From: Phycisphaerales bacterium
GTDB lineage: Bacteria; Planctomycetota; Phycisphaerae; UBA1845; Fen-1342
Direction: 5' to 3'
Length of the DNA stretch: 22,627 nt
Assembly: GCA_016795025.1 (NCBI GenBank)
Contig: JAEUIR010000051.1
Location: 1 to 22,627, forward strand
Shown here: positions 4,922-22,627 of the stretch, in pieces
How the letters are laid out: each line of letters opens with the position of its first letter
Position numbering within the stretch: the stretch's first letter is position 1
The notes under the pieces: generated by a model
What the model was told of the DNA's origin: nothing
What the model saw: only the letters and a program-made list of their open reading frames with translations
Databases searched by the model: none
Program-made: the position numbers and the translations under genes

Positions 4922-4990
4922 CATTCGGCGGGTGGGTTCAAACAATTGACAACCCGCAAACCGCATTGCCGGGATTGAACGGAGGTCGAT

Positions 4991-5731
4991 GTGCGCTGGC
5001 TTGTCGCCATCCCCGCTTACAACGAAGAGCAGCACCTTCCGGCCGTGCTGGATGCCGTGCGCGAATACACGCGGCACATCGTCGTTATCGACGACGGCTC
5101 GACGGACGCGACCAGCGCGATACTCGACGCGCGGCCGGAGATTCAGCGCGTCACGCATGGAATCAACCTGGGATATGGGCGCAGTGTGATCGATGCATTT
5201 GATTACGCCGCGGCGCATCATTTCGATTGGGTTATCACGATGGATTGCGACGAGCAGCACGAGCCGGCGCAGATTCCGCATTTTGTCGCGGAAATGACGC
5301 GCGATCGCGCGGATGTTATCAGCGGCTCGCGCTATCTGATTCCGCATCCGCAAGATGACGCGGCGCCGCTCGACCGGCGCCGCATCAACCACACGATCAC
5401 GCGCGTATTGATGCAACGACTGGGTTTGCGGCTGACAGACTCGTTTTGCGGTTTCAAGGCGCATCGCGTGTGCGCGATGCAGCGGCTTCGCCTGAGTGAA
5501 ACCGGCTACGCGTTTCCGCTGCAATTCTGGGCGCGGTGCGTGCAGGAAGGATTGCGCATTACGGAGATTCCCGTCAGGCGGATTTATCGCGATGCGTCGC
5601 GCGTCTTCGGCGGCATGCTCGATGATCCCGAACATCGCCTGCGACACTACTTGGAAGTTCTCGAACGCACCATTCAGCAATCGCCCGTGCCGTGCGGCGC
5701 GCGACGCGCAGCATCGGCCGCGTGTCATTGA
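4991..5731 (+). CDS. GT2 glycosyltransferase, Dpm1/Ppm1-like (polyprenyl-phosphate sugar synthase family)
   Basis: GTG start at 4991 with a GGAGG RBS at 4981-4985. VAIPAYNEEQHLPAVLDAV...HIVVIDDGSTDATSAIL (GT2 DxD-region), MDCDEQHEPAQIP (DAD-x-QH-like motif) and ISGSRY all match the Dpm1-type GT2 pattern. The last ~25 residues are low-complexity, so the true C-terminus may be functionally shorter. Confidence 0.7.
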   Translation: MRWLVAIPAYNEEQHLPAVLDAVREYTRHIVVIDDGSTDATSAILDARPEIQRVTHGINLGYGRSVIDAFDYAAAHHFDWVITMDCDEQHEPAQIPHFVAEMTRDRADVISGSRYLIPHPQDDAAPLDRRRINHTITRVLMQRLGLRLTDSFCGFKAHRVCAMQRLRLSETGYAFPLQFWARCVQEGLRITEIPVRRIYRDASRVFGGMLDDPEHRLRHYLEVLERTIQQSPVPCGARRAASAACH

Positions 5732-5817
5732 GCTCGCCCGTGTTGCTGGATCGCAGTCGTCTGAAGACTCCGGCGGGACCGTTGGGGGTTCTCTGCGAAC
5801 CGTCGGCGCTGCGCGAA

Positions 5818-7257
5818 ATGCTCGACGGCAGTGTTGAGGAGTTGCGCGGCAAACCGGAAACGACGCTTGTGAGCGGAAGGCCGCTCAGCGGTTGGCGGAG
5901 CGAGCTGCGTGACGCATTTGGCCTGGTCGAGCCTGCGATCGTCACGGGGCATCAGGTCGAGTTCTACCATGCGGGGGTTTTCGCGAAGGTGGTCGCGGCG
6001 CATCATCTGGCGGAGCGAAGCGGTGGAAGCGCGCTGTTCGTCGGCGTGGACAGCGATACGCCCAAAACCGCGCGCTTGACGACCACGCGCATTTCGCATG
6101 GCGCGGCGCAGCGTGTGGAGGTATTGATTCCCGGCGTTGATATGGACGTGTCAATGGAGGCGCAGGAGGCATTGCCGCGCGAGCAGTGGCTGGAGTTCTT
6201 CGCGCGCGTCGCTGATCTATCGCCGGATTACGAATCGAGCGGGCTTCGCGCATTCGCCGACGGATGGCTGGGCGGCGCAGCGGAGCGCGTCGCGATTTCC
6301 GCGGCGATGTCGCGCGGTCACGAAGGCCTGCAAGACGCTCTGGGCGTGAAGCCTACGCCGCATGTGCCGGTTTCCAGGCTGTGTACGACGCCGGCTTTTT
6401 CCGCGTTTTTTGAGCAAATCGCAATGAACGCCGCACGATTCGCAAAGAATTACAACGCTGCGCAGACAGCGTATCGAGCGCGCCACCGCGTGAGATCGGA
6501 TCAACGTCCTGTTCCGCCGCTGGTCGTGGATTGCGATCAGGTGGAACTGCCGTTTTGGATGATTGACGGCGCAGGCCGGCGAAAGCGGCTGTCATTGGAT
6601 CGCGCGCGCGGTCTGCGAGTAGAAGGCGTTTCAGCCGATATTTCTATTCAAAACGCGCTACGCGGCATTCAGGAAGGCACGCACCGAATTCGGCCGCGAG
6701 CGCTCACGCTGACGCTTTTTTTGCGTTTGTTCGTGGCGGATGCGTTTATTCACGGCATCGGCGGCGCGAAATATGATGAGATTACGGACGAGCTCTCGCG
6801 CGAGTTTTTCGGCGCGGCGGCCGCGCCGATCGCGTGCGTCAGCGCGACGCTAAGCCTGTTCGGCGAGCAGCAGGCATTGGTACCGGATGAGCTCGCGGCC
6901 GCGAGGCTCGCCGTTCGTGATCTGCGGCACAATCCCGAACGGTATGTGAAAGGCATCGACGAGGGGCTGATTGCGGAGCGCGACGAGTTGCTGCGCGAAG
7001 CGGCTCGGCTTCGAGCGAATGACAGGCGAAATCGCGCGGCTCGGCGAGCGATTCACCGGTCGCTGCGGGCCGTACACGATCGCATGCTGGCGGTCCAACC
7101 TTGGTTGGGTTCTTCGCTGACTCAGCGGGTCGAAACGCTGCTTTCTCGCAGCCGCGACGAAAAGTTACGCGCAGATCGTGAGGTTTTTTACGGCTTTCAT
7201 TCGCTTTCGGCCTTGCGAGAATTGGTGAGCGCGATCCGCGGAGCGATCGGCTCGTGA
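5818..7257 (+). CDS. Conserved protein with BshC-like motifs (putative bacillithiol-type cysteine-adding enzyme family) and a C-terminal coiled coil
   Basis: AIVTGHQVEFYHAGVFAKVVAAHHLAE...ALFVGVDSDTPKTARL resembles the BshC N-terminal GQQxGLFxGPLYxxxK ... PVFWIAGEDHD pattern. IRPRALTLTLFLRLFVADAFIHGIGGAKYDEITDEL resembles the BshC LRP...FIGGxxEIxYW block. The C-terminal ~110 residues are strongly helical (RDELLREAARLRANDRRNRAARRAIHRSLRAV...), as in the BshC coiled-coil domain. The motifs are recalled from memory, so family assignment is tentative. The start could alternatively be GTG 5740, TTG 5743 or GTG 5692; the ATG at 5818 was chosen. Confidence 0.45.
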   Translation: MLDGSVEELRGKPETTLVSGRPLSGWRSELRDAFGLVEPAIVTGHQVEFYHAGVFAKVVAAHHLAERSGGSALFVGVDSDTPKTARLTTTRISHGAAQRVEVLIPGVDMDVSMEAQEALPREQWLEFFARVADLSPDYESSGLRAFADGWLGGAAERVAISAAMSRGHEGLQDALGVKPTPHVPVSRLCTTPAFSAFFEQIAMNAARFAKNYNAAQTAYRARHRVRSDQRPVPPLVVDCDQVELPFWMIDGAGRRKRLSLDRARGLRVEGVSADISIQNALRGIQEGTHRIRPRALTLTLFLRLFVADAFIHGIGGAKYDEITDELSREFFGAAAAPIACVSATLSLFGEQQALVPDELAAARLAVRDLRHNPERYVKGIDEGLIAERDELLREAARLRANDRRNRAARRAIHRSLRAVHDRMLAVQPWLGSSLTQRVETLLSRSRDEKLRADREVFYGFHSLSALRELVSAIRGAIGS

Positions 7258-7402
7258 GCGGTAACGGGCGCCGAATTACTGCCGCGATTTTCGCCGCGTC
7301 TTCTCGCAATTAGCGTTTTTTCTCCGGAATTCCGCAGTTGTCTCCGCTATGTGCCGGCAGCAAGATACGCGCACCCAGCAGGTCAAATTTGTGGAGCGGC
7401 GA

Positions 7403-9976: not shown

Positions 9977-9992
9977 CGTTTGGGAGCAGAAA

Positions 9993-10733
9993 ATGCGGCG
10001 AGCTTGCATCATCGTGGCGATGGCTGTTGGATTGATGGCCGTCGGCTGCGCACACGATCGAAAGTTCATTGTGGTCAAGGCTCCGGAAGGCATGGGGTTT
10101 GACACGGAGTTCTTCGCGACGACGGCGGCCGTCCCATCGTCCGGCTGGTTCATCACGGGCGAAGTTTTCAAGGGTTCAGGCAACTCGGTGATGTTCATTG
10201 ATTACACCACCGGCTCAACGTATGGGACTGAAATCACGACGCCCGCGACGTATTCCGCCACCAAACCAACGCAAATGCACGTGATCGGCGGAGGGTTTGA
10301 CTATCACGTCATGCTTGTTCCCGAACCGGGTTTCACCGCGACGATGCAATTGACGTCGCCTTCATCGCCGGCGACTTTTGGCGGGAATTACAATTTTGTT
10401 TACATCCATGGGAATTGGCCGACGACAACCACGACGCACACCACCATCGCGGCTTCCGGCTGTTCGATTCTGGTGCTTGGCCGCGTAAATCCGGTCACGA
10501 CTACGACGTTTGACCAGGTTTTCCTGCTGCGGCAATCCACCGCGGGCGGCGGCGTGAGCATTTCCAAGAATGGCGTTCCCGGGTCATATCTGCTCTCGAC
10601 GATCCGCCACTACGTCGAGGTCATCACCACGACGCCCGTCGCGGATTTTCCAATCCAGAATCTGCCGGCTCTGGATCAGGAGCGTTTCTCAAAATCGGAA
10701 GGCCTGGCGCTGCTGACCAGGACCGGACCGTGA
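9993..10733 (+). CDS. Secreted lipoprotein, paralog 1 of a three-member tandem family of unknown function (Thr-rich core GNWPTTTTTHTTIAASG)
   Basis: Starts at the ATG at 9993 with a GGGAG RBS at 9982-9986, 16 nt after the kinase stop. The N-terminus MRRACIIVAMAVGLMAVGC is a lipoprotein-type signal (lipobox-like AVGC). It shares the core ...NYNFVYIHGNWPTTTTTHTTIAASGCSILVLG with the two downstream paralogs. Confidence 0.6.
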   Translation: MRRACIIVAMAVGLMAVGCAHDRKFIVVKAPEGMGFDTEFFATTAAVPSSGWFITGEVFKGSGNSVMFIDYTTGSTYGTEITTPATYSATKPTQMHVIGGGFDYHVMLVPEPGFTATMQLTSPSSPATFGGNYNFVYIHGNWPTTTTTHTTIAASGCSILVLGRVNPVTTTTFDQVFLLRQSTAGGGVSISKNGVPGSYLLSTIRHYVEVITTTPVADFPIQNLPALDQERFSKSEGLALLTRTGP

Positions 10734-10815
10734 CGATCGTCATTCGGCACGCGCGGCGCTTGATCGCCAAGCGCCGCGCTGCGATGATTGCGGCACACCT
10801 TTTCGGAGTGTCTGC

Positions 10816-11496
10816 ATGATGGGGTCGATGCTTGTCGCCGGGTTGCTCACGCTGCATATGTTGCCCGTGCCGGAAGCGCGAGAGATGATCGATGCTGCGC
10901 AAGTCGCTCCAACCGCTCAAATTCTCGGCTACTTTGAATACAAGCCTGACGGCGTCAGCTTCGAATTCAACCGGCTCGGCACACCCACGGCGTTTCCATT
11001 TGACTCGGTTCAATCGATTCAAAAGCCGACGCAGATTCGCTGTACATCTTCAACATGGGATTACACGCTGCTGATTGTGCCGAAATCCGGGCAACAGCCC
11101 ACGCTAAGAATCGAAAAGGACAACGGTACGCCGGGGCGAGCGATTTTCGGGTCCGGCGTGGATTACATCATTCTCAGCGGCCGCTGGCCGGTGATCGAGA
11201 CGGAGCACACGACTTCCGCGGCGGCCGGCGTGGTCATTGTGGTGTACCCGTTCCAGGACAGCGGCAAGAATTTTGATCGCTATGTGATGTTGCAGCGGAC
11301 CGCCAGCGATGGCATGCTGAAGGCGCGATCGAAAGTGGGGTCGCCGCCGGATCAACAACTGGCTCTGCGCGGAGCGTGCGTAGCGCTTGCCTCCGACGAG
11401 GTGCGGCACTCGCATTTGATGGACGACGAAGCGGTGGACAAATCAGTGGCGAAGATGCGCGGTCTGGGCGCGCTGACGCTGACAATTCCGCCGTAA
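10816..11496 (+). CDS. Secreted protein, paralog 2 of the tandem family (core GRWPVIETEHTTSAAAG)
   Basis: ATG at 10816 with GGAG 8 nt upstream. The hydrophobic N-terminus MMGSMLVAGLLTLHMLPVPEA is a signal-peptide candidate. The core VDYIILSGRWPVIETEHTTSAAAGVVIVVYP aligns with paralogs 1 and 3. The upstream block TQIRCTSSTWDYTLLIVPKSG aligns with paralog 1 TQMHVIGGGFDYHVMLVPEPG. Confidence 0.6.
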   Translation: MMGSMLVAGLLTLHMLPVPEAREMIDAAQVAPTAQILGYFEYKPDGVSFEFNRLGTPTAFPFDSVQSIQKPTQIRCTSSTWDYTLLIVPKSGQQPTLRIEKDNGTPGRAIFGSGVDYIILSGRWPVIETEHTTSAAAGVVIVVYPFQDSGKNFDRYVMLQRTASDGMLKARSKVGSPPDQQLALRGACVALASDEVRHSHLMDDEAVDKSVAKMRGLGALTLTIPP

Positions 11497-11617
11497 TGGC
11501 GATCGGTCGGCTCGGGTCTCATTCACCTGACCAGGCGCGGCCGCATGCTTTTGGAGCTCCGTGTTGTTCTTGTAGCGGCGTATTCTCGGTCAGGCTTTGT
11601 TTGGATTGGAATTGACG

Positions 11618-12238
11618 ATGCTGCGAGCGATCGGACTTTTGATGCTGACGGGGTTGATGGGGGGCATCGCGGGCTGTCCTGGAGCTCTCGATTTGTCGGA
11701 TTGCTGCGACGGTCCGGCGGGATTGGCGACTTTCGCAGTGGATTTTTCGTCGCTCACATCGTCACGGTCGTTTGATGTTGCACTGCCGTCGCGTGTGACA
11801 CTCACAGGCGCCGGCGTGGATTGCGTGATCTGGGTGCTGCCGGCGGACACAGCCGGCGCGAGCGTGATCGTCGAACCAAACGGAAGGGCGCGAATCACTG
11901 GAAACTACTCGGCGATCTACATATCTGGTAACTGGCCTGTGGTGGAAACGACGCACACGACAGCGGCCGCGTCGGGCTTGGTCGGACTGGTGCTGCCGGA
12001 GGCCGCCGAGGGTGGTGAATACGTATACAACGCGGCGCTGCTGGCGGCCGGCGGCACTTTGGGTGTCGGTCCCGCGGCGGATCAGCCGATCGCGCTCGGG
12101 CAGTTTCGTTTCATGACGAATCAGGCGGTGGGGGAGGCCACAGCGCTTTCATCCGTGGAGCCAGGCGGCGGGGCGGTATCGACTCAGATCGCGGCCGTGC
12201 TGGCACAGATCGAATCGTTGGAGGCTCGCGTGGAGTGA
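11618..12238 (+). CDS. Secreted lipoprotein, paralog 3 of the tandem family (core GNWPVVETTHTTAAASG)
   Basis: ATG at 11618; the ORF track starts at a TTG at 11597. The N-terminus MLRAIGLLMLTGLMGGIAGC has a lipobox-like IAGC. The core GNYSAIYISGNWPVVETTHTTAAASGLVGLVLPEA aligns with paralogs 1 and 2. The C-terminal 20 residues are helical (STQIAAVLAQIESLEARVE). Confidence 0.6.
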   Translation: MLRAIGLLMLTGLMGGIAGCPGALDLSDCCDGPAGLATFAVDFSSLTSSRSFDVALPSRVTLTGAGVDCVIWVLPADTAGASVIVEPNGRARITGNYSAIYISGNWPVVETTHTTAAASGLVGLVLPEAAEGGEYVYNAALLAAGGTLGVGPAADQPIALGQFRFMTNQAVGEATALSSVEPGGGAVSTQIAAVLAQIESLEARVE

Positions 12239-13589: not shown

Positions 13590-13991
13590 TTATGGCGCCT
13601 GGCCTTTTGGAAAGTCGCATTTTGAGCATTTTCGCGGGTCGTTGGGTCCGGGGGCGAGTTTGACCACATCACCGTGTGCGGGGCAGCGCTTGCCGCGGAC
13701 GCCCTTGCGCTCGTTGCACTTGGGGCAGCGGTATTTCATCATGCGCGTTTGTGCGTCGCTGTCGTAATCGTTGCGGCGCTGCGCGTCGTCAATCTGCCGC
13801 AATGTCATGTCGAACTGCTGATTGCAACCTTCGCAGACGAACGCGACAGCGCTGTCCGCGTCGTCTGGCGCGGCGTCTTCGATCGAGCTGCCTTTTGTGA
13901 ACAGCCGCCATGCGGCCAATCCGCCGACGAGCACGACAACTCCGGCGAGAACATAGGTTTTGGCTGCGGCGCGCCGAAGATGCCGATTCAT
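13590..13991 (-). CDS. Small membrane-anchored Cys-rich (double zinc-ribbon-like) protein, function unknown
   Basis: From the internal ATG at 13991: MNRHLRRAAAKTYVLAGVVVLVGGLAAWRLF (positive N-terminus plus one TM, giving N-in topology). It is followed by CEGC...CPKC and CPAHG...CSKC, i.e. four CxxC-type pairs. The upstream 71 codons of the 204 aa ORF are low-complexity and were excluded. Confidence 0.4.
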   Translation of the reverse strand: MNRHLRRAAAKTYVLAGVVVLVGGLAAWRLFTKGSSIEDAAPDDADSAVAFVCEGCNQQFDMTLRQIDDAQRRNDYDSDAQTRMMKYRCPKCNERKGVRGKRCPAHGDVVKLAPGPNDPRKCSKCDFPKGQAP

Positions 13992-14751
13992 CCGGTTTGC
14001 TCCATTGACGATGCGGCGGCGAGGATACCGCGCGAGTTGCGAGCGAGCGAGTGGCGGACTGCTTTGCGGAATCATCATGCAGCACGCAAGACGCAGAAGG
14101 AAAGCCGGGTGAGCGGCAAATCGCCGGTCAAGTGCCAAGCAAACCGCATGCCGCGAATTTTGCCATGCGCATCGAAAAGTCACGCAAACTGTGTGCCGCG
14201 CCAAACCGCGACAATGTCTTGGAATAACTCCTCGCCCGCCATGAATGCGCCATATCGAATTACGCTTTTTGTCGATTCTTGGAATCGCTTGTCATGCGCA
14301 TTTGCACCGGCCGAAATATGTGCTAGGTTTCTTCTAGTGACGCTGAATGCCGAATGTCGCGGCGCCGGTCGCCGCGGCAACGGGGAACCCAGGCGCGGCA
14401 CACAGTCGGCCGATCGTCGGTCGGCGCCGCAGGGGCGAATCCGCGACGCATGCGGACGCAAACAGCGATTTGCGAGCCCGTCAGCTAACCTCGTAGGCGC
14501 TACCGCTGGAGCGTTGTTATGCGCATCTCATAGCTCATCCGCGGCCGGGCTTCCCGGCAATCCGTCGAATCAAGCTCTCATCCGAACCGCGCAAGCTGTC
14601 GTTCGGGCGCAGCAGGCGCGCGGAGAGCGGCTTCGATCATCGCCCATCATGACGCAATGGCCGCGCGCCAGCGATGCCGCGCCTCACGCGCGAACGCGGC
14701 CTTCCGCATCGCGGTGCGCTGGCTGAACCGCGAGCGAACGAGGAGCCTGTC
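13992..14751. promoter_or_regulatory. Long (~760 bp) divergent non-coding region between the zinc-ribbon gene and the flotillin gene. Likely carries both promoters and a long 5' leader
   Basis: No protein-like ORF on either strand; the 350 aa + ORF 13674..14726 and the 93 aa - ORF have Arg/Ala/Pro-rich, non-protein-like composition. There is a locally AT-richer patch at 14240-14340 (TTGCAC-16nt-TAGGTT, a weak sigma70-like element). An AGGAG RBS at 14741-14745 precedes the flotillin GTG at 14752. Confidence 0.3.
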
Positions 14752-16821
14752 GTGTTCGCATACACACTGCTGATGTCCGTTGCAGACGGCGTACTTTTGA
14801 CGGTAACGACGATGCTTGGCATGGTCGTTGTCGCCGGCTTGTTGAGCAGTATTCGATACATCCCCAACAACCGCGCGGGCATTGTCGAGAAGCGCTTCAG
14901 CGCGCGCGGCTCGGTGCAGCATGGATTTATCGCGATGAATGGCGAGGCGGGCTTTCAGCCCCATGTGCTGCGAGGCGGTCTGCACCTGTTGATTCCGTTC
15001 CAGTACAAGGTGCACATCGTTCCGCTCGTGACGATTCCGCAGGGAAAAATCGGCTACATCTTCGCCCGCGACGGACGGCCGCTCGCGCCCACGCAGACGC
15101 TGGGCAGCAATGAAAAAGCAAACAGCTTTGAAGATGTCGAGCATTTTTTGCGGAACGGCGGGCAGCGCGGTCCGCAGCGTCAGATTCTGCGTGAAGGCAC
15201 GTACGCGATCAATCTGGCGCAGTTCGCCGTGATCACGGCCAACCACATGTATTTTTTGACGCTGGATCGCGATGACCGTGGCATCTTTCAGAATATGACG
15301 AACGTCATTACGGTGCGCGAAGGCTTCGAGCCGGTGGTGATCAAAGGCGCGGACGACATGTGCGGAATCGTGACGGTTCACGACGGCCCGGCGTTGCCCG
15401 CCGGCGAGATCATTGCGCCGATCGTCGGTCAGAATGCCGAAGAGGCCGAATCGTTTCATAACAATTTTCAGGCTCCGGAGCATTTCATCCGCGCCGGCGG
15501 ATGCCGTGGCCGTCAGCACCAGGTGCTAGTCGAGGGCACGTATTACCTGAACCGGCTGTTCGCGACGGTGGAGCTGATTTCGAAGACCGTTGTCGAAGTC
15601 GGTAATGTCGGCGTGGTGGTGTCATACACCGGCCGCCGCGGCGCTGACTTGTCCGGTGCGGAATACAAACACGGCGAGCTGGTGGAGCAGAATGGCCGCG
15701 GTGTGTGGAAAGACCCACTGATGCCTGGCAAGTATGCGTTCAATACTTACGCGGGCAAAGTCATCATGGTGCCGACGACGAATTTCATATTGAAATGGAT
15801 CCGGAGCGAAAGCGGGCAGCATCGTTACGACGAGAGCCTGAGCGAAGTGTCGCTCATCACGAAGGACGCCTTCGAGCCGTCGTTGCCGCTGAGCGTGGTG
15901 GTGCATATCGACTATCGCAAGGCGCCGCTGGTCATTCAGCGATTCGGCGACGTGAAGCGACTGGTCGAGCAGACGCTCGATCCGATGGTATCGGCGTACT
16001 TCAAGAACATCGGCCAGACGCGCACGCTGATTCAGCTATTGCAGGATCGCGCGATGATTCAAAAGCTGGCCGGCGAGGAGATGCAGGAGAAATTCGCGCA
16101 CTACAACCTGGAGCTTGAAGAAGTGCTAATCGGCACGCCGACTTCGAGCGGCGGCGACCGACGCATCGACGACATCCTGACGCAGCTTCGGCAACGCCAG
16201 ATTGCCGAAGAGCAGGTTGAGACGTATGCGCGCCAGGAAAAAGCGGCGTTGAAGGAACGCGAGCTGCGAGAAGCCGAAGCCAAGGCGCGTCAGCAGCAAA
16301 GCCTGACCGAGAGCGAATTGTCGATTCGCATGCAGGAAAATCAGGGTAAGGCTGAATACCAGCGCGCGATTCAGGAAGCGGCTCGCGTTCGCGCGATGGC
16401 CGAAGCCGAAGCCGCCAGGACTCGCGCGCTGGCCGAAGCTGAAGCGGCCCGCATCCGCGCCGTTGGCGAGGCGGAGGCGGACAAGGCCGCTCGCATCGGC
16501 GTGGCGCAGGCCGTGGCGATCGAGGAGCAGGTGCGCGCGTATGGCGGTCCGCAATATCAGCTTACGCGACAGGTGATGGAGCGCTTCGCCGAGGCGATCC
16601 AGCACTCGGGCGTCGATCTCGTGCCAAAGGTCGTCATCGGTGGCGGCACGAAGGGCGACATGACAAACGGCGGCAATGTGATGGAGGCGCTGTTGACGAT
16701 GTTGTTGTCCGAACGATTCGGCGTGACGCCGGCCGTGACGGACGCCAAGCCGAATCCGCTGGCGGAGCGCATGCGCCAGGATGTACGACAAGTGCTAACG
16801 AACGGCCCGGGGAAAGGGTGA
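14752..16821 (+). CDS. Flotillin / SPFH (band 7) domain protein, FloT/YqiK-like, with an extended Glu/Ala-rich coiled coil
   Basis: N-terminal TM (VLLTVTTMLGMVVVAGLLSSI) followed by IPNNRAGIVEKRFS, the SPFH-start signature. The SPFH body runs to ~residue 430. A long coiled coil with EAEA repeats follows (AEAEAARTRALAEAEAARIRAVGEAEADKAARIG), then the flotillin C-terminal region. The start is taken as the GTG at 14752 with an AGGAG RBS 7 nt upstream. Alternatives are the ATG at 14773 or the ORF-track ATG at 14674. Confidence 0.8.
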   Translation: MFAYTLLMSVADGVLLTVTTMLGMVVVAGLLSSIRYIPNNRAGIVEKRFSARGSVQHGFIAMNGEAGFQPHVLRGGLHLLIPFQYKVHIVPLVTIPQGKIGYIFARDGRPLAPTQTLGSNEKANSFEDVEHFLRNGGQRGPQRQILREGTYAINLAQFAVITANHMYFLTLDRDDRGIFQNMTNVITVREGFEPVVIKGADDMCGIVTVHDGPALPAGEIIAPIVGQNAEEAESFHNNFQAPEHFIRAGGCRGRQHQVLVEGTYYLNRLFATVELISKTVVEVGNVGVVVSYTGRRGADLSGAEYKHGELVEQNGRGVWKDPLMPGKYAFNTYAGKVIMVPTTNFILKWIRSESGQHRYDESLSEVSLITKDAFEPSLPLSVVVHIDYRKAPLVIQRFGDVKRLVEQTLDPMVSAYFKNIGQTRTLIQLLQDRAMIQKLAGEEMQEKFAHYNLELEEVLIGTPTSSGGDRRIDDILTQLRQRQIAEEQVETYARQEKAALKERELREAEAKARQQQSLTESELSIRMQENQGKAEYQRAIQEAARVRAMAEAEAARTRALAEAEAARIRAVGEAEADKAARIGVAQAVAIEEQVRAYGGPQYQLTRQVMERFAEAIQHSGVDLVPKVVIGGGTKGDMTNGGNVMEALLTMLLSERFGVTPAVTDAKPNPLAERMRQDVRQVLTNGPGKG

Positions 16822-16950: not shown

Positions 16951-16984
16951 GCCGGGAGTTGCCGCGCGAGTGGCAGCTCCCGGC
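16951..16984. terminator. GC-rich hairpin between convergent flotillin and MFS genes (candidate bidirectional terminator)
   Basis: gccgggag-t-tgcc-gcgcgagt-ggca-g-ctcccggc forms an 8 bp outer stem plus a 4 bp inner stem. It lies 5 nt 3' of the MFS stop codon (16989-16991) and ~130 nt after the flotillin stop. No strong U-tract on either side, so it is more likely a stabilising or intrinsic-terminator-like element than a canonical terminator. Confidence 0.3.
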
Positions 16985-16988
16985 GCTG

Positions 16989-18344
16989 TTACTTGTCGGA
17001 CGGCTTCTTGGCTTCCTCCGCTGCGTTGTACAAGCCGCGCAGGCGGCGCAGCTCGGGCAGCCAACATGCCGTACCGATGACGACGAGAATAGTGCCGATT
17101 CCGCCGGAGACCACGCTGAACACCGGCCCGAAGAACTTCGCCACTAACCCACTCTCAAAGCCGCCTAGTTCGTTTGACGACTCGATGAATACCGCGTTCA
17201 CGGCGGCGACGCGGCCGCGCAAGTGATCCGGCGTTCTCACGCTTACGAGCAGGTGGCGAATCACGACGCTGATGTTGTCTACCGCGCCGAGAATCGCCAG
17301 ACAGGCTAATGACAGCCAGAAATTCGTGGAGACGCCAAACAGGATCGTGAACGCGCCAAAGCCGGCGACAGATAACAGCAGCGCTCGACCGGCCTGCTCG
17401 ATGGGGCGGCGGTGCGCCATGAACACAGCCATGATGAACGCCCCGACGAACGGCGCCGCGCGCAGCGCGCCGAGTCCCACCGGCCCGACATGCAGGATGT
17501 CCTGTGCGTAAACGGGCATCAGCGCCGTCGCGCCTCCCAGCAGCACCGCGAACAGGTCCAGGGTGATGGCGCCGAATACGGTCTTTTCGCGCCAGACGTG
17601 ACGCGCGCCTTCGAGCATTCCGGGGATCAAGACGCGCGGGCGAATCGCGTTCCACATGCCGTCATTCACGGGCGGCGGCGAATGCGGTCGTATGAAACCT
17701 GCGCTGATCGCGAACCACAAACATGAAACGCTCATGAACACATAGACCGGCCAGGCGGCCTTTACGAAATGGATTAGAAATCCGGCAGCGATCGGACCGA
17801 GCATCGCGGCGAGTTGAAACAGGCTTGCGTTCCAGGTGACGGCGTTCTGGAACAGCAACCCGCTCGCGCCGCCCGGCAGCATCTGTGGCAGCAAGCTGGA
17901 GCGACTCGGGCCGTTGAACACGCGGGCGCAGCCGGTCAGCGCGATCAGGGCAAACATCATCCACAATCCACCGCGACCGCTCCCTAGCGCGCCGCGCTCC
18001 CAGGCGATCGAGCCGGTCGTCAGCGCCGCTCCGGCGATCGCGAAGCCGATCTGAGTGGCGATCAGCACGCGCTTGCGGTCGATGCGATCGGCGATCTGCC
18101 CGGCCGGCAGCGCGAGCGCCAGCGTCGGCAATGCCCGAAAGACGCCGATGAGGCCTAGTGCGAGCGGGTCTTGCGTGCGCTCGTAAATTTCCCACGCGAG
18201 TGCGGTGTTCTGCATTTGCAGACCGATCGAAGCGGGCAGCCATCCGCCCGCGAAAAGCTGGTAATTGCGGTTGCGCAGCGCGGCATAGGCATCGTGAACG
18301 GGATGGGCGGGTATCGAGTCGTCTGTTTTGTCCGGCGGCATCAC
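16989..18344 (-). CDS. MFS transporter (EntS/YbdA-like, 12-TM)
   Basis: 451 aa and hydrophobic throughout. The N-terminal motif YQLFAGGWLPASIGLQMQNTALAWEIY...DPLALGLIGVFRALP is typical of the EntS-type MFS family. The start is 13 nt downstream of the PMT_2-TPR stop on the same strand. Confidence 0.7.
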   Translation of the reverse strand: MMPPDKTDDSIPAHPVHDAYAALRNRNYQLFAGGWLPASIGLQMQNTALAWEIYERTQDPLALGLIGVFRALPTLALALPAGQIADRIDRKRVLIATQIGFAIAGAALTTGSIAWERGALGSGRGGLWMMFALIALTGCARVFNGPSRSSLLPQMLPGGASGLLFQNAVTWNASLFQLAAMLGPIAAGFLIHFVKAAWPVYVFMSVSCLWFAISAGFIRPHSPPPVNDGMWNAIRPRVLIPGMLEGARHVWREKTVFGAITLDLFAVLLGGATALMPVYAQDILHVGPVGLGALRAAPFVGAFIMAVFMAHRRPIEQAGRALLLSVAGFGAFTILFGVSTNFWLSLACLAILGAVDNISVVIRHLLVSVRTPDHLRGRVAAVNAVFIESSNELGGFESGLVAKFFGPVFSVVSGGIGTILVVIGTACWLPELRRLRGLYNAAEEAKKPSDK

Positions 18345-18357
18345 GCGGGAATTGTAC

Positions 18358-20433
18358 TCATTCGAGGCGCGCGGCTCGGTCCGCGCGATATTCGGTTAGT
18401 CGCGCACTAATGCGTGCCCCAAGTCGCAGGTCGCCGCCACAACGGTCGAGCGCGCTCGTTGCCGTTCGGATGGCCTCGTCGAAACGGCCGACCTCGGCAT
18501 ACGCGGCGGCGAGAACATCTAATACGGCTGCGTTCGGGACCGACATCGACGCTGCCGCGGACTCCGCGAGCTTTACGGCGGCGGCGCCGTCGCGCACCTG
18601 TTGATTCGGGGCGGCGGCAAGAAACCATGCAAGACGAAGTTGCAGTTCGAAATCGGAGGGGTTGGCGTTCGCGCCACGCCGCAGCGCGTCTACTGCCGCC
18701 GGCCAGTCTGCGCGTCGTCGGTGCGCCTCGGCGAGATTCGACCAGGGCGCCGGGTCGAACGGATCGGCCTCGACCGAGCGTTGCAGATAATCGATTGCAG
18801 ATTCGATGTCGCGCGCCATGAGCTTCGCGGTTCCCATCGCGGCCAATACGTGCGGTACGTTGGATTGGCCGGCAAGCGCAATTTCGTATTCGGCAATCGC
18901 GTTCGCTGGTTGTCTGCGTTGCGACCAGACCTGTCCCATGCCGAAATGCGCGGCTGCTTTGCCGGGCTGAATTTCCAGTGATTTTTTCAGGTAATGCTCG
19001 GCTGTATCCGCCTCCCCAATGTTGGCGAGCGTGATGCCGGCGTTCGCGTAGCTCGTGGCCAACTCGGCCTGGGCGGGAAAGGGCGTCGGCCAATTCGCGG
19101 GAGCGGCGACCAGGACGCCGACGGCGATCGCGCCCCAAAGCGAGGCGGTTTCGCGACATCGCACTCGACGCACAATTTCCACGATTGCGTGGCTGGCCAA
19201 AGGCATCAACAGCACCGCCAGCGGATAGCGATAGCGCGCCAGCACAAAGAACGCCGCTGTGGACAGCAGAAATATGGCCGCCATCAGCACAATCAGTCGC
19301 GTTTCCGGCCACTTCGACCAACTGAGCCAGGCGCCGGCAACTGCCAATGGCAGCAACAAGCCGAAGTGCGTGATCGGCGACAGAAGACCGAGCAGGACGC
19401 TATGGTCTGCATAAAACGCCTGATCCTCCGAATCAGGAATTTCATAGGCGTTGGTCGCCAGGAACAGTTTGTGCGCGGTGAGCCGCAGCCAGGGCAACGG
19501 CTCCGCGCGGATGAACTTAAACGCCTCTGCGTACCAGAAGCGCGATACTTCGCGCGGCGACAGTTCCCGTCCGGCCGCAGCCTGAGCAATGCGTATCGCG
19601 TCGATGCGTTCATAACGCGTTTGTCCCCGCCCGGCGCTCAGCGCCACATATGATCCGTTCGCGCTCGGGTTGTTTCCGATGTAAAAATTCGGCCCGGACT
19701 GATAGGTGGTGATCAGCGCCTGGCCGCACACGACGTAGTTGCGCCAGGCGACGATGCTGAGAATCGCGACGGCCCCGAGGGTCAGTGTGCCGGCACGCGT
19801 CAGGCGCGCCCCAACGCGGTTTGTATGGCTTGGCGAGATCGTGATTGCAAGCCAGCCGGCAACGACCGGGATTAGCAACAAAGCGTTCTCGCGCGTCAGC
19901 GCGAGCGCGGCGATCGTCATGCCCAGCGCGCCGCAGACGATCAACCCCGTGGATTGTCGCAAACGCGAGATGAGCCAGAGCATCGTCGCGAATCCGAGTT
20001 CATCCAACACGGTTTTTTGAATCAACGCGCCGAGGAAGATCGAAGGAGGATAGATCGCCAGCAATGCTCCGGCGAGCACACCGACCGGCGTGGAGAACAA
20101 TCGTCGGCTCGCGGCGGCTAGCAGCACGCAGGAAACAGCTCCAACGGCGGCCTGCACAAATCGGATCGCGATGGCGTCGTCCCCGACGAGGCGCATGGTC
20201 GCCGCGAGAAAATACGGGTATAGCGGCGCTTGATAGAATGGTTCCGAGCCAAGCCAGTCACCTCCCGCGATTTGTCGCGCCCATTGCAGATACGCTTCGG
20301 AATCGATAACGGGGAAGCGCACCATCGGAACATCGCGAATTTCCGCGATGAATGCAGCGCGCGCGAGCAGCGCGAGCAGAAACACACCGGCCAGCCAAGC
20401 CCACCACGGCAAATCGCGCTGTCGAGCGTCCAT
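18358..20433 (-). CDS. PMT_2-family (ArnT / GT39 / GT83-like) integral-membrane glycosyltransferase with a C-terminal TPR domain
   Basis: From the ATG at 20433: MDARQRDLPWWAWLAGVFLLALLARAAF...FPVIDSEAYLQWARQIAGG...EPFYQAPLYPYFLAATMRL. The D-x-E-A-Y loop after TM1 and the FY..PLYPY pattern are characteristic of ArnT/PMT-like GT-C enzymes. There are ~11 hydrophobic segments through residue ~470. The C-terminal ~220 residues are TPR-like (AEHYLKKSLEIQPGKAAAHFGMGQVWSQRRQPANAIAEYEIAL...). The upstream 83 codons of the 774 aa ORF are Arg-rich and overlap the upstream gene, so they were excluded. The stop of the upstream gene and this start are arranged TGA-t-ATG. Confidence 0.6.
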   Translation of the reverse strand: MDARQRDLPWWAWLAGVFLLALLARAAFIAEIRDVPMVRFPVIDSEAYLQWARQIAGGDWLGSEPFYQAPLYPYFLAATMRLVGDDAIAIRFVQAAVGAVSCVLLAAASRRLFSTPVGVLAGALLAIYPPSIFLGALIQKTVLDELGFATMLWLISRLRQSTGLIVCGALGMTIAALALTRENALLLIPVVAGWLAITISPSHTNRVGARLTRAGTLTLGAVAILSIVAWRNYVVCGQALITTYQSGPNFYIGNNPSANGSYVALSAGRGQTRYERIDAIRIAQAAAGRELSPREVSRFWYAEAFKFIRAEPLPWLRLTAHKLFLATNAYEIPDSEDQAFYADHSVLLGLLSPITHFGLLLPLAVAGAWLSWSKWPETRLIVLMAAIFLLSTAAFFVLARYRYPLAVLLMPLASHAIVEIVRRVRCRETASLWGAIAVGVLVAAPANWPTPFPAQAELATSYANAGITLANIGEADTAEHYLKKSLEIQPGKAAAHFGMGQVWSQRRQPANAIAEYEIALAGQSNVPHVLAAMGTAKLMARDIESAIDYLQRSVEADPFDPAPWSNLAEAHRRRADWPAAVDALRRGANANPSDFELQLRLAWFLAAAPNQQVRDGAAAVKLAESAAASMSVPNAAVLDVLAAAYAEVGRFDEAIRTATSALDRCGGDLRLGARISARLTEYRADRAARLE

Positions 20434-20434
20434 A

Positions 20435-22198
20435 TCAGCGCGATCCCAGGAAGCCGCGAATCGCCGGAATTGCTCGCTCCGCGCGGGCGCGATCGACCGC
20501 CACCAACTTGACGTCGTGCGAATCGACCTCAGCAACCGATTGATCCACGTTAAATGTGATGATCCGTCCGTTGGGTTGCCAATCCCACTGACATGCCACG
20601 CGGCGTCGGCCATCGGCGTCCGGGGGCAAAGGCCGTAACCGCATCGTCGGGAGGCTTTGCCCCCACGGCCCGATGGTTTCAAGCAGCCATTCGCCGTCGT
20701 CCTGATTCGCCGCCCAGGCCTGCGCGATCATTTCCATTGGCGGACTAATGAAACAGTCAGTCGGGATAAGTTTTACCGTGCGGTTGAGTCGGCCAAGCTG
20801 AATTGTGTGCTGAATCGTCCCATCCAGACCGCGCTTGGTGCGAAGCGACGTCGGCGTGCCATCCGCCGATTCGCCTTGCCAGGCATTCGAGTATTCGTAG
20901 CCGTGCTCATCCATTGTCCATCGTTCGGACTCGTGGCCCTGCGGGAATATTGTCAGATTCTGGCCGCGGTATCCAAGTCGGGGATTGCGGCTCTCGGCGC
21001 TGCGCTCCATTACTTGCAGCCGCAAGCCGGTACGCGACTCAAGCAGGTAATCGCGAGACAATTCGCGTCCCCACCAAGCCACCGGGCCCTGTTGCGTCAA
21101 CAGCTTCGACAGCGCCATACCGGCGGAAATCGACGCGTCAACATCTGGCGCGCAATCAGCCTCGCGAAAGGCGATCGCTTCGGCAAGGCGTTTCAACGAC
21201 GACTCTGCCTGAGCCGCATTTCGGGGATTAGCGCGGGCGATCAGCAGAACGGCGTTGCGAGGGTCGCGCCAGACGAGGCCCGCGCTGCTGAATGTGTCGT
21301 CCTGTTCCACAGCCGGGTTCGGCATGATGGCCATTGAAAGGCCGTCTGCCCGGTGCAACTCGTCCGGGGTCGGCAGATCGACCCACGGCGCGTGCAGGGT
21401 GGATGCGGCCACGTCGCGCAGAATTTCCGCGGCGTTGCGGCCGGGGGCCATCCACGTTCGAAATATGTCGATGGCGTGCGTCATTTCGCCGTTTTCGAGA
21501 AAGCCAACATGAAGTCCGGCGAATTCCTCGCGGGCAGCGACCACGCATGCGTCCGCCGGCAAACGCGCTGCAAGTCCAACCTGTGCCCAAGCTTCGGCCG
21601 GGGATTTTGCGACGGCTTCGTCGTCGACGCGCACGGCGCGGCAAATCGCGTCGAGCAGGTCAAGATCGCCGAGCGTCAGATCGGTGAGCGGCACATATTC
21701 CACAACCAGAATGTCGCCGCGTGGCGTGCAGGCCACCCGGATGACGCTGTCCTGATCGAATCCGAATCCGCGGTGCTCGACGCGCAGGCGGCGCGTGGCC
21801 TGCACCCCCCAGAAGCGCCCGATTCGCGCCGGGCGATAATCGCTGAAAGGCAGCGCGTCGCGCTGCGCCCGTTCGCGAATCCACTCGCGCGGCGAGCGAA
21901 ACGACGAGCCTTGCGCATACGAAAACGTAATCTGCCGCTCGATGGAGATGCGCTGGCGGCCGATACCCTGTTGTCTGGTGGGCAGCACGAAGCGCCCAGG
22001 AGCTTTCGGGTTGGCGATCCAGCCGATCGGCGGGCGAACGACCAGCGGCGTGTTCTCGACGCGCTGCTCAGCGGCCAAGGCGCGCGAGGCGCTGACTTGC
22101 CACCAGGCCAACCCCAGCGTGCTCGCCAGCAGCACAGCGCTTAGGATGAGCAGGCGAGCGGGCTTGCCGGGGCGCGTACCGGAATAGACTTCCCACAT
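20435..22198 (-). CDS. Large exported/membrane-anchored protein of unknown function (588 aa), translationally coupled to the PMT_2-TPR glycosyltransferase
   Basis: From the ATG at 22198: MWEVYSGTRPGKPARLLILSAVLLASTLGLAWWQVSASRALAAE, a signal-anchor or signal peptide. The remainder is soluble-looking with no motif I recognise. The stop lies 1 nt before the start of the downstream glycosyltransferase. Confidence 0.5.
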   Translation of the reverse strand: MWEVYSGTRPGKPARLLILSAVLLASTLGLAWWQVSASRALAAEQRVENTPLVVRPPIGWIANPKAPGRFVLPTRQQGIGRQRISIERQITFSYAQGSSFRSPREWIRERAQRDALPFSDYRPARIGRFWGVQATRRLRVEHRGFGFDQDSVIRVACTPRGDILVVEYVPLTDLTLGDLDLLDAICRAVRVDDEAVAKSPAEAWAQVGLAARLPADACVVAAREEFAGLHVGFLENGEMTHAIDIFRTWMAPGRNAAEILRDVAASTLHAPWVDLPTPDELHRADGLSMAIMPNPAVEQDDTFSSAGLVWRDPRNAVLLIARANPRNAAQAESSLKRLAEAIAFREADCAPDVDASISAGMALSKLLTQQGPVAWWGRELSRDYLLESRTGLRLQVMERSAESRNPRLGYRGQNLTIFPQGHESERWTMDEHGYEYSNAWQGESADGTPTSLRTKRGLDGTIQHTIQLGRLNRTVKLIPTDCFISPPMEMIAQAWAANQDDGEWLLETIGPWGQSLPTMRLRPLPPDADGRRRVACQWDWQPNGRIITFNVDQSVAEVDSHDVKLVAVDRARAERAIPAIRGFLGSR

Positions 22199-22310
22199 GC
22201 TGGCGAATGATAGCGTGTGACGCGGTTCGCGCCCGGTACGTCGATGTGTCGTGGTCGGCGGCGCGGTTTCGCTGATAGGCTGTTCGCGCGGGCGGTTTGT
22301 TGAAATAAAT

Positions 22311-22627
22311 TTATCGTGCGGAGGGGCCGTCCAGCCGCACTGCAAACTGCACGTTTTGAAATCCAGCGCCGACGCACTCGTCCATCGCGCGAACGATGTG
22401 CTTCCAGCGCACCGAGGATTCCGCGCCGATCACCACCGGGTTCGTCGCATCCGCGCCGGCGGCGCGCTTGCCTTCCAGGAATTTCCGCAACTCGTCGAAT
22501 GCGTTGGTGCCGATCGGCTCGCTGTTCACGTAAATGCCGCAAGACTTGCCGGCGTCGATATTTTGAAGTCCGATCTTGACGGCTGGAATGATGTCAACCG
22601 CCGCGCCGGCTCCGGGGCCGCTGCGCG
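22311..22627 (-). CDS. exbD: ExbD/TolR family biopolymer transport protein (C-terminal part; the gene starts beyond the right edge)
   Basis: Extending the listed 72 aa ORF upstream in frame gives ...AGAAVDIIPAVKIGLQNIDAGKSCGIYVNSEPIGTNAFDELRKFLEGKRAAGADATNPVVIGAESSVRWKHIVRAMDECVGAGFQNVQFAV. This matches the ExbD periplasmic domain pattern (IYVN...V..EL...L......V.I.AD..V.....V.VMD....AG...V.F.). Confidence 0.6.
   Translation of the reverse strand, partial: RSGPGAGAAVDIIPAVKIGLQNIDAGKSCGIYVNSEPIGTNAFDELRKFLEGKRAAGADATNPVVIGAESSVRWKHIVRAMDECVGAGFQNVQFAVRLDGPSAR

What the first reader, a model, noticed from the sequence alone, without database searches (positions are those of the whole stretch)
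18358..22198. PMT_2 (ArnT/GT39-like)-TPR membrane glycosyltransferase translationally coupled to a 588 aa exported protein of unknown function, in an operon with exbD and an MFS exporter
Four minus-strand genes lie in a row: exbD fragment, 112 nt gap, unknown exported protein, TGA-t-ATG junction, GT-C glycosyltransferase with C-terminal TPR, 13 nt gap, MFS transporter. GT-C enzymes of this family transfer sugars from polyprenyl-phosphate donors to proteins or lipids on the periplasmic side. The TPR domain suggests protein-substrate recognition. The coupled large exported protein has no motif I recognise and could be the acceptor or an accessory subunit. A Dpm1-like donor synthase is encoded 13 kb away (4991-5731). 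Together this could be a periplasmic protein-O-glycosylation-like system, which is not well described outside Actinobacteria.
Basis: partly seen in the sequence, partly recalled or inferred. Interest (0 to 1): 0.65.

Follow-up and report, generated by a model that had tools for sequence, protein, structure and literature searches.

The report
Glycosyltransferase beside unrelated envelope protein gene
The four genes are really there and the enzyme looks like a genuine membrane sugar-transferase, but its pairing with the unknown 587-residue protein occurs only in a few close relatives, so there is no evidence that the two form a dedicated protein-glycosylation system.

Summary
On the minus strand lie an ExbD fragment, a 112-nt gap, a 587-aa unknown protein, a TGAtATG junction, a 691-aa PMT_2+TPR glycosyltransferase (GT), a 13-nt gap and an MFS transporter.

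The GT is a credible GT-C enzyme. Asp44 in the first loop is invariant in 120 homologues and aligns with the Asp of the E. coli ArnT loop. Hydropathy gives 11 TM helices, which places the loops and the TPR domain in the periplasm.

The system-level reading fails its own conservation test. The unknown protein (FAM) belongs to a Planctomycetota (mostly Phycisphaerae) family of about 178 clusters. Only the window and two close relatives (P0002, P0003) pair it with the GT. The next relative (P0004) has a DNA glycosylase gene there instead. None of 31 more distant loci with enough downstream DNA has the GT. Their usual neighbours are a tandem Kdo/WaaP-like kinase and an LplA-like ligase. The GT family has more than 3,000 members with varied neighbours.

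A confident AlphaFold model (pLDDT 94) shows a conserved uncleaved N-terminal anchor, two PsbP/Mog1-like domains and an EipB-like β-spiral. These are envelope binding folds with no link to glycosylation.

The locus is best read as a lineage-specific juxtaposition. Interest is low to moderate.

The parts
22314..22625 (-). C-terminal 104 aa of an ExbD/TolR-type protein, cut by the contig end. In orthologous contigs it is the second ExbD of a vWA(SxxxH anchor)-ExbB-ExbD-ExbD cluster.
   Evidence: Pfam ExbD E 2.3e-7; frame and stop codon; orthologous loci L001, L005 and L007.
22199..22310 (-). 112-nt intergenic gap. It contains a conserved TATCATT element at 22206-22212, 8-14 nt upstream of the ATG. 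This may be a separate promoter or leader for the downstream genes.
   Evidence: Alignment of the gap in four orthologous loci. Gap length is variable; the motif is conserved in 3 of 4. No consensus sigma-70 site was called.
20438..22198 (-). 587-aa member of an unnamed Planctomycetota (mostly Phycisphaerae) protein family, called FAM here. It has a conserved cytoplasmic N-terminal motif (xEVYxGxRPG[RK]P) and a TM anchor at aa 13-38 (nt 22085-22162). The periplasmic part has two PsbP/Mog1-like alpha/beta sandwiches (about aa 50-210 and 215-345) and an EipB/DUF1849-like beta-spiral (about aa 350-585).
18361..20433 (-). 691-aa GT-C glycosyltransferase. The membrane domain is aa 1-450 (nt 19084-20433) with about 11 TM helices. 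The invariant Asp44 codon is at 20302-20304. The periplasmic TPR domain is aa 456-664 (nt 18442-19068).
   Evidence: Pfam PMT_2 and TPR hits. More than 3,000 homologues. Invariant residues. hhalign to E. coli ArnT loop 1. Hydropathy count.
16992..18344 (-). 451-aa MFS transporter (MFS_1/MFS_3, EntS/DHA3-like). It accompanies the GT in the window, L005 and L007 only.
16951..16984 (.). 15-bp GC-rich hairpin between the convergent MFS and SPFH genes. It is the likely end of the transcription unit.
4991..5728 (+). 246-aa GT2 resembling polyprenyl-phosphate-sugar synthases. It is a possible but unlinked donor-forming enzyme.
   Evidence: Pfam Glycos_transf_2 1.2e-25. NCBIfam PpgS 3e-27, AglJ, dolichyl-P-hexose transferase and ArnC, all below the curated cut-offs.

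Best explanation
The row of genes is a lineage-specific juxtaposition of three separate modules, not a conserved glycosylation system.

(1) The ExbD fragment is the tail of a proton-motive motor cluster. In orthologous contigs this cluster reads vWA protein with a TonB-like SxxxH anchor, then ExbB, ExbD, ExbD. That is the 'vWA force transducer' type recently described in PVC bacteria.

(2) The 587-aa protein (FAM) is an inner-membrane-anchored periplasmic protein of a family confined to Planctomycetota, mostly Phycisphaerae. A conserved cytoplasmic N-terminal motif and TM helix hold it in the membrane. Two PsbP/Mog1-like sandwiches and an EipB/LolA-like beta-spiral face the periplasm. By analogy with LpqN, DcrB, EipB and LolA, it most likely binds a protein or lipid-like ligand in envelope biogenesis or maintenance. 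This function is inferred, not shown. Its usual genomic partners are a tandem Kdo/WaaP-like kinase and an LplA-like ligase.

(3) The GT is a bacterial TMTC/ArnT-like GT-C enzyme. It most likely takes a sugar from a polyprenyl-phosphate donor at the periplasmic face, with Asp44 of loop 1 in the catalytic role. It probably passes the sugar to an acceptor recruited by its periplasmic TPR domain. The acceptor is unknown, and in most genomes it cannot be the 587-aa protein. In this clade the GT travels with an MFS transporter.
For: Gene map and domain calls.

FAM family and structure:
- 178 clusters, nearly all full length.
- The N-terminal 60 aa are the most conserved part.
- 47 loci from GTDB species representatives carry a family ORF by HMM, all from Planctomycetota/Phycisphaerae MAGs.
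- AF2 model pLDDT 94.2.

Neighbourhoods:
- All four close orthologues follow ExbB-ExbD-ExbD. GT+MFS follow in P0002 and P0003. Adenine_glyco follows in P0004.
- Outside this clade, no ExbB/ExbD, GT (PMT_2) or MFS matched models built from this locus's own proteins.
- Of 34 loci with at least 900 nt downstream, 24 have the Kdo/WaaP kinase and only the 3 window-clade loci have the GT. Of 44 with at least 900 nt upstream, 21 have LplA-like and only the same 3 have ExbD.
- Pfam confirms Kdo in 25 and LplA in 13 of 155 neighbouring ORFs.

GT:
- More than 3,000 homologues in several phyla.
- Neighbours vary: RTX giant protein, pilus-type ATPases, ECF sigma, PSCyt proteins.
- L001 (FAM without GT) and L008 (GT without FAM) come from the same sample and have the most similar tetranucleotide profile (r 0.973).
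- Asp44 is invariant in 120 of 120 homologues and aligns with the Asp of the ArnT 'PDETRY' loop.
- 11 hydrophobic segments.

Literature:
- vWA force transducers beside tolQ and two tolR genes in PVC bacteria (PMC12204202).
- Full-length GT-C+TPR homologues of TMTCs exist in many uncharacterised prokaryotes (PMC7801869).
Against: - The FAM-GT junction is very tight in two lineages (1 nt in the window and in L007). Such spacing often marks co-translated partners.
- FAM, the GT loops and the TPR domain are all predicted to face the periplasm, so an interaction is physically possible.
- Two structural relatives of the beta-spiral domain have links to TPR proteins: EipB with TtpA (genetic only) and CATIP with TTC17.
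- Neighbourhood counts rest on 8-kb blocks of MAG contigs, a crude ORF caller and HMMs built here.
- The DNA pattern used to find loci recovers only about 55-60% of family members.
- Gene order is weakly conserved in Planctomycetota, so absence of linkage is weaker evidence there than in operon-rich phyla.
- No function is demonstrated for any of the proteins.
Confidence: 0.62

Rival explanations
1. The GT-TPR enzyme and the 587-aa protein form a dedicated periplasmic protein-O-glycosylation module. The 587-aa protein is the acceptor or an accessory subunit, the GT2 at 4991-5728 makes the lipid-linked donor, and the MFS protein assists.
For: - Tight TGAtATG junction, and the same adjacency in L007 and L005/L006.
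- Invariant catalytic-type Asp and a periplasmic TPR domain.
- GT2 resembling polyprenyl-P-sugar synthases on the same contig.
- Eukaryotic TMTC and TMEM260 enzymes of the same architecture O-mannosylate folded domains.
Against: - The pair is absent in the P0004 lineage and in all more distant family loci.
- The closest GT orthologues lie elsewhere.
- The GT family is far larger and taxonomically wider than the 587-aa family.
- The GT2 is 13 kb away on the other strand, among unrelated genes.
- The folds of the 587-aa protein have no known link to glycosylation.
Confidence: 0.12
2. The 587-aa protein is an output or accessory of the ExbB-ExbD-ExbD proton-motive motor that precedes it. Its conserved TM helix would dock on the motor, as TonB or TolA does, and pass force or a signal to its periplasmic domains.
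For: - All four close orthologues sit 60-135 nt after the second exbD.
- The TM anchor and juxtamembrane segment are the most conserved part of the family.
- New non-TonB transducers for such motors have just been described in PVC bacteria.
Against: - The TM helix has no His or SHLS motif.
- The motor cluster already encodes a vWA protein with an SxxxH anchor.
- There is no Pro-rich linker or TonB_C domain.
- No family member outside this small clade lies next to ExbB/ExbD.
- A conserved element in the variable gap suggests a separate start of transcription.
Confidence: 0.1
3. The GT modifies a lipid or glycan rather than a protein, for example lipid A/LPS or another envelope glycolipid, as ArnT does. 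The MFS protein would move a related small molecule. The TPR domain would serve for complex assembly, not for choosing a substrate.
For: - Loop 1 aligns best with ArnT.
- PMT_2 is the ArnT/PMT-type model.
- There is no MIR domain and no PMT (PF02366) or DUF1736 hit at E<0.01.
- The usual neighbour of the 587-aa family is an LPS-kinase-like protein, which shows that LPS-related genes lie near this family in other genomes.
Against: - The hhalign match to ArnT is weak (E 0.0018, probability 15%).
- The characterised GT-C enzymes carrying TPR domains named in the papers read here (TMTC1-4, TMEM260) act on proteins.
- No lipid A-modification genes (arnBCAD-like) lie in the window.
Confidence: 0.15

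Closest known systems
Eukaryotic TMTC1-4 (GT105) and TMEM260 protein O-mannosyltransferases, and their uncharacterised prokaryotic full-length homologues
   Same: N-terminal GT-C membrane module with a conserved Asp in the first extracytoplasmic loop. About 11 TM helices. C-terminal TPR domain on the same side as the catalytic loops (PMC7801869 and PMC10214176).
   Different: No DUF1736 or DUF2723 Pfam hit at E<0.01. The sugar, donor and acceptor are unknown. The enzyme sits at the bacterial periplasm rather than the ER lumen. No sequence match to any solved structure, even with a profile.
ArnT (GT83), undecaprenyl-phosphate-L-Ara4N:lipid A transferase
   Same: PMT_2-type membrane domain. Loop 1 reads D-x3-Y ... 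G-D-W ... F-Y-Q-A-P and aligns with E. coli ArnT D-E-T-R-Y ... G-D-W ... Y-F-E-K-P.
   Different: Weak similarity (E 0.0018). The Glu after the Asp is not conserved. A TPR domain replaces the ArnT periplasmic domain. There is no arn operon.
Actinobacterial/fungal Pmt (GT39)
   Same: Same GT-C clan. NCBI names the protein 'glycosyltransferase family 39 protein'. A Dpm1/Ppm1-like GT2 is present on the contig.
   Different: No PMT (PF02366) or MIR domain hit at E<0.01. The DE dipeptide is reduced to D only.
EipB (DUF1849) of Brucella, with PA1994, CATIP and LolA-like beta-spiral proteins
   Different: No sequence similarity (9% identity, no Pfam DUF1849 hit). The domain here is fused behind two PsbP-like domains and a membrane anchor. 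EipB is a soluble protein restricted to Alphaproteobacteria.
PsbP/Mog1-fold periplasmic binding and chaperone proteins (LpqN, DcrB, SciW/DUF1795, Tsi3, Apa)
   Different: Similarity is in fold only. No shared motifs, and the ligands are unknown.
vWA force transducers with TolQ/TolR-like motors in PVC bacteria (PMC12204202)
   Same: Orthologous contigs carry a vWA protein with an SxxxH anchor, then ExbB and two ExbD genes, directly upstream of the 587-aa gene.
   Different: In the window only the last ExbD fragment is visible. The published clusters place the vWA gene after the motor genes and a TPR gene before them. The 587-aa protein is not part of the described system.

Membership tests
GT-C / Pfam PMT_2 (PF13231) | Match to the family model above the curated score | tested here: met
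   44.1 bits against a cut-off of 26.1, aa 68-230 covering model positions 2-160 of 160.
GT-C / Pfam PMT_2 (PF13231) | Conserved acidic catalytic residue in the first extracytoplasmic loop | tested here: met
   Asp44 is invariant in 120 of 120 homologues. It aligns with the Asp of E. coli ArnT 'PDETRY'. The alignment itself is weak (E 0.0018).
GT-C / Pfam PMT_2 (PF13231) | Polytopic membrane domain with catalytic loops and C-terminal domain outside the cytoplasm | tested here: inconclusive
   Family-averaged hydropathy gives 11 segments, which implies N-in and C-out. No dedicated topology predictor or structure model was available for the GT.
GT-C / Pfam PMT_2 (PF13231) | Use of a polyprenyl-phosphate-linked sugar donor | not testable with these tools
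   Inferred from the family. A polyprenyl-P-sugar-synthase-like GT2 lies 13 kb away.
GT39 protein O-mannosyltransferase (PMT) | PMT domain (PF02366), luminal MIR domain and DE motif | tested here: not met
   Only PMT_2 and TPR families were hit at E<0.01. The residue after Asp44 is S/A/G, and position 46 is R/Q/E/K across the family.
TMTC-like (GT105) | GT-C module followed by C-terminal TPR repeats | tested here: met
   PMT_2 at aa 68-230 and TPR at aa 456-664. The same architecture is seen in all 120 listed homologues.
TMTC-like (GT105) | DUF1736 signature region / significant sequence similarity to TMTCs | tested here: not met
   No DUF1736 hit at E<0.01. A direct comparison with a TMTC sequence was not run.
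TonB/TolA-type force transducer (for the 587-aa protein) | TM helix with SHLS/His motor-binding motif, Pro-rich or helical spanning domain, TonB_C/TolA_C domain | tested here: not met
   No His in the anchor in any of the aligned family members. No TonB_C hit. The periplasmic part of the model is globular, with mostly high pLDDT from aa 40.
EipB / DUF1849 | 14-stranded open beta-spiral fold | tested here: met
EipB / DUF1849 | Sequence membership in the Pfam family; soluble periplasmic protein | tested here: not met
   No Pfam hit. 9% identity in the structural alignment. The protein is membrane-anchored and has three domains.
   Present in the window, L007 and L005/L006. Absent in L001-L004 and in 0 of 31 more distant loci with enough downstream DNA.

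The most novel reading that the evidence does not exclude
In this small Phycisphaerales clade, a TMTC-like GT-C-TPR enzyme may have been recruited next to an EipB/LolA-like membrane-anchored envelope protein and a proton-motive ExbBD-vWA motor. The three would form a clade-specific, energised envelope-glycosylation or tethering module, in which the TPR domain docks on the beta-spiral protein. That would echo the EipB-TtpA and CATIP-TTC17 links between a beta-spiral protein and a TPR protein. It would be the first defined acceptor or adaptor for a bacterial TMTC-like glycosyltransferase.
Probability: 0.08. Interest if true: 0.65.

Novelty: new member of a known kind. Interest (0 to 1): 0.3.

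Why it matters
Bacterial GT-C enzymes with TPR domains are very numerous (more than 3,000 homologues found here), and I found no report of a known substrate for any of them. A conserved partner gene would have been a direct lead to an acceptor. This locus does not provide one.

The work does yield two things. First, it gives a confident structural description of an unnamed, Planctomycetota-restricted envelope protein family: a conserved N-terminal anchor, two PsbP-like domains and an EipB-like beta-spiral. Second, it identifies that family's real recurrent neighbours, a tandem Kdo/WaaP-like kinase and an LplA-like ligase. These are better starting points for finding its function than the glycosyltransferase is.

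Tried and rejected
- Word-indexed homologue search for the 587-aa protein found only 4 clusters. Repeating it with a 103-sequence profile again gave only 4. The exhaustive HMMER search was needed to see the family.
- The first AF2 run, with 4 sequences, was unusable at pLDDT 40.7. It was replaced by the 103-sequence run.
I wrote a degenerate DNA pattern over P10...W60 instead. The first version had a miscounted spacer and found nothing. It was corrected after a Python check and then scanned against the genome collection. At least six hits in non-Planctomycetota genomes carried no family ORF and were discarded.
- The afdb50 fold library was not available.
- PDB sequence searches found nothing for the 587-aa family. 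They also found nothing for the GT membrane domain, either as a single sequence or as a profile. The full-length GT query hit only TPR proteins.
- A 588-aa protein lies directly upstream of the GT homologues P0012 and P0013, which looked like a conserved pairing. It is unrelated: hhalign E 0.35-0.42, and it has an N-terminal stretch of hydrophobic, probably membrane-spanning segments. The two genomes are near-identical relatives. A '587-residue' gene in L008/L009 is also a coincidence of length.
- I looked for the Kdo/WaaP kinase and LplA-like genes in the window and in L001, L005 and L007. Neither is present.
- My first crude gene caller dropped the 587-aa gene because of the GT's extended ORF. 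I switched to clustering all ORFs.

Full report
**Observation.**
- An ExbD C-terminal fragment lies at 22314-22625 and is cut by the contig end (Pfam ExbD E 2.3e-7).
- A 112-nt gap follows.
- Next is an ORF from the ATG at 22198 to the TGA at 20435-20437. It is 587 aa and has no Pfam or NCBIfam hit.
- The junction reads TGA-t-ATG.
- Next is a 691-aa protein at 18361-20433. It matches PMT_2 (44.1 bits against a cut-off of 26.1, aa 68-230) and has TPR repeats at aa 456-664.
- After a 13-nt gap comes a 451-aa MFS_1/MFS_3 transporter at 16992-18344.
- A 15-bp GC-rich hairpin at 16951-16984 closes the unit against a convergent SPFH gene.

The window is a whole 22,627-bp contig of a Phycisphaerales MAG. 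NCBI names the two proteins 'hypothetical protein JNG88_07265' and 'glycosyltransferase family 39 protein'.

**The glycosyltransferase.** It has more than 3,000 homologues with the same PMT_2+TPR architecture in Planctomycetota, Acidobacteriota and other phyla.
- In an alignment of 120 homologues, Asp44 in the first loop after TM1 is invariant.
- Other invariant or near-invariant charged residues are K140, R181/E182, E275, D278, E331, D334, R400 and R402.
- A profile of the membrane domain matches no PDB sequence.
- hhalign against E. coli ArnT, fetched from MG1655, aligns 'IDSEAYLQWARQIAGGDWLGSE-PFYQAP' with '[33 protein letters not shown]'. This puts Asp44 on the ArnT loop-1 Asp. The score is weak (E 0.0018, probability 15%).
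- Family-averaged hydropathy gives 11 hydrophobic segments. With the N-terminus inside, loop 1, the 118-aa loop carrying E275, D278, E331 and D334, and the TPR domain all fall in the periplasm. This is a crude estimate, so the placement is inferred.
- The architecture is that of eukaryotic TMTC1-4 and TMEM260. Published work notes that full-length prokaryotic homologues exist and are uncharacterised.
- There is no PMT, MIR or DUF1736 hit. It is therefore not a GT39 Pmt in the strict sense.

**The 587-aa protein (FAM).** The word-indexed search found only three other clusters, at 82, 63 and 62% identity. An exhaustive HMMER search with their alignment found 178 representative clusters, 112 of them at E≤1e-30 and nearly all 560-625 aa long.
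- The most conserved part of the family is the first 60 residues: a cytoplasmic 'xEV[YH][ST]Gx[RK]PG[RK]P' motif, a hydrophobic helix, and a 'TPLxVRPPxGW' segment. Cleaved signal peptides are not conserved like this, so the protein is a bitopic N-in membrane protein rather than simply an exported one.
- With the 103-sequence alignment, AlphaFold2 gives pLDDT 94.2 and pTM 0.91. The 4-sequence run had failed.
- They also show two alpha/beta sandwiches of the PsbP/Mog1 type: PsbP 11.9, Mog1 11.2, Apa 11.2, SciW 11.1, LpqN 10.2, DcrB 8.8.
- These are binding or chaperone folds common in envelope biology. None has a link to glycosylation, and no catalytic signature is evident.

- All four close orthologues sit directly after MotA_ExbB-ExbD-ExbD.
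- GT+MFS follow in P0002 (junction 1 nt) and P0003 (36 nt). In the P0004 lineage the next gene is Adenine_glyco (four contigs).
- The closest GT orthologues, P0008 and P0009 (57% and 56%), follow a 2,289-aa RTX protein and precede rplT. They have no FAM, MFS or ExbBD nearby.
- P0008's contig comes from the same sample as P0004's. Its tetranucleotide profile is the one most similar to P0004's contig (r 0.973). This is consistent with one genome carrying the two genes apart.
- To reach the wider family I scanned GTDB species representatives with a degenerate DNA pattern over the N-terminal motif. 47 loci carried a family ORF by HMM, all from Planctomycetota/Phycisphaerae MAGs.
- Models built from this locus's own ExbB, ExbD, GT membrane domain and MFS found none of them beside any of these loci.
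- Of 34 loci with at least 900 nt downstream, 24 carry a ~625-aa tandem Kdo/WaaP-like kinase and only the three window-clade loci carry the GT. Of 44 with at least 900 nt upstream, 21 carry an LplA/LipB-like ligase and only the same three carry ExbD.
- Pfam scans of 155 neighbouring ORFs agree: Kdo 25, LplA 13, FtsX/MacB 7, Aldedh 6. No PMT_2, ExbD or MotA_ExbB appears among the listed families.
- Other GT homologues sit in yet other contexts.
- A 588-aa protein upstream of P0012/P0013 is unrelated to FAM.

**The ExbD end.** In L001 and L005 the motor cluster begins with a 359-aa protein. Its anchor reads 'ISLVVH' (SxxxH), and it has a weak VWA_3 match. This corresponds to the vWA force transducers next to tolQ and two tolR genes recently described in PVC bacteria (PMC12204202).
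- FAM's anchor has no His, so it is not a TonB/TolA-type partner.
- The exbD-FAM gap varies from about 60 to 135 nt among relatives. It keeps a TATCATT element 8-14 nt before the ATG in three of four loci. This suggests a separate transcription start, so 'operon with exbD' is unproven.

**Conclusion.**
- Shown: the gene map; the GT-C/TPR nature of the enzyme and its invariant Asp; the existence, taxonomic range, anchor conservation and predicted fold of the FAM family; and the lack of conserved linkage between FAM and the GT or ExbBD.
- Inferred: the periplasmic orientation of the TPR domain, use of a polyprenyl-phosphate donor, an envelope binding or chaperone role for FAM, and the separate promoter.
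- The locus is best filed as a new member of the known, uncharacterised bacterial TMTC/ArnT-like GT-C-TPR class, lying by lineage-specific rearrangement next to a member of an unnamed Planctomycetota (mostly Phycisphaerae) envelope-protein family.

Noticed in passing
window 14331-14514 (+); also L005 10819-11001 (+): A c-di-AMP riboswitch (ydaO/yuaA, RF00379) scores 52.5 bits against a gathering score of 38. It lies about 160 nt upstream of the 715-aa SPFH/Band_7 gene (14674-16818). The same element precedes the orthologous Band_7 gene in L005 (54.1 bits). It overlaps the mechanical 350-aa ORF at 13674-14726, whose 3' part is therefore doubtful.
   Followed up: partly
L001 6975-9898; L005 3-2546: Upstream of the family gene in orthologous contigs lies a vWA protein with a TonB-like SxxxH anchor ('ISLVVH'), then ExbB and two ExbD genes, preceded in L001 by DUF1844 and Lgt. 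This matches the 'vWA force transducer' systems of PVC bacteria reported in PMC12204202, but with the vWA gene placed before the motor genes.
   Followed up: partly
L012-L066 (e.g. L054 3031-4908; L027 2363-3241): The 587-aa family's usual same-strand neighbours are a ~625-aa protein with two Kdo/WaaP-like kinase domains immediately downstream (24 of 34 loci with enough DNA) and an LplA/LipB-like ligase immediately upstream (21 of 44). A MacB/FtsX permease, an aldehyde dehydrogenase and DUF3467 lie further upstream in some loci. The conserved cytoplasmic tail of the family (xEV[YH][ST]GxRPGRP) contains Tyr/Ser/Thr and could be a target of that kinase. This idea was not tested.
   Followed up: partly
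L008 917-7786; L009 863-7738: The closest orthologues of the glycosyltransferase (56-57% identity) lie directly after a 2,289-aa secreted-type protein with 12 RTX calcium-binding repeat stretches and a weak dockerin match. A giant repeat protein next to a TMTC-like enzyme is a candidate acceptor worth testing.
   Followed up: partly
L068 1088-8133; L010 3206-10142: In two closely related Phycisphaerales/Planctomycetia genomes, a GT homologue (44% identity) follows two T2SSE (PilB/PilT-type) ATPases and an unrelated 588-aa protein with an N-terminal hydrophobic, probably membrane-spanning region. In L068 a prepilin-peptidase-like gene lies nearby.
   Followed up: no
L070 8951-9652; L010 15819-16604: A small GT2 (233-261 aa, Dpm1-like size) lies 0.8-5.7 kb downstream of GT-C-TPR homologues in two other genomes. 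This is an occasional linkage to a possible donor synthase.
   Followed up: no
window 3770-7254 (+): An MGDG/diglucosyl-diacylglycerol-synthase-like GT (3770-4918) is followed by the polyprenyl-P-sugar-synthase-like GT2 (4991-5728). A 521-aa soluble ORF with no family hit (5692-7254) overlaps the GT2 end by 40 nt. This may be a small glycolipid-related unit of its own.
   Followed up: no
window 7349-9973 (+): An 875-aa Ser/Thr protein kinase with a CHASE2 sensor domain. Three following ORFs (9897-12235) have no family hit.
   Followed up: no
window 22206-22212 (-): A TATCATT element 8-14 nt upstream of the 587-aa gene's ATG is conserved in three of four orthologous loci, although the intergenic length varies. 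It could be a -10-like box giving a leaderless or very short-leader transcript.
   Followed up: partly
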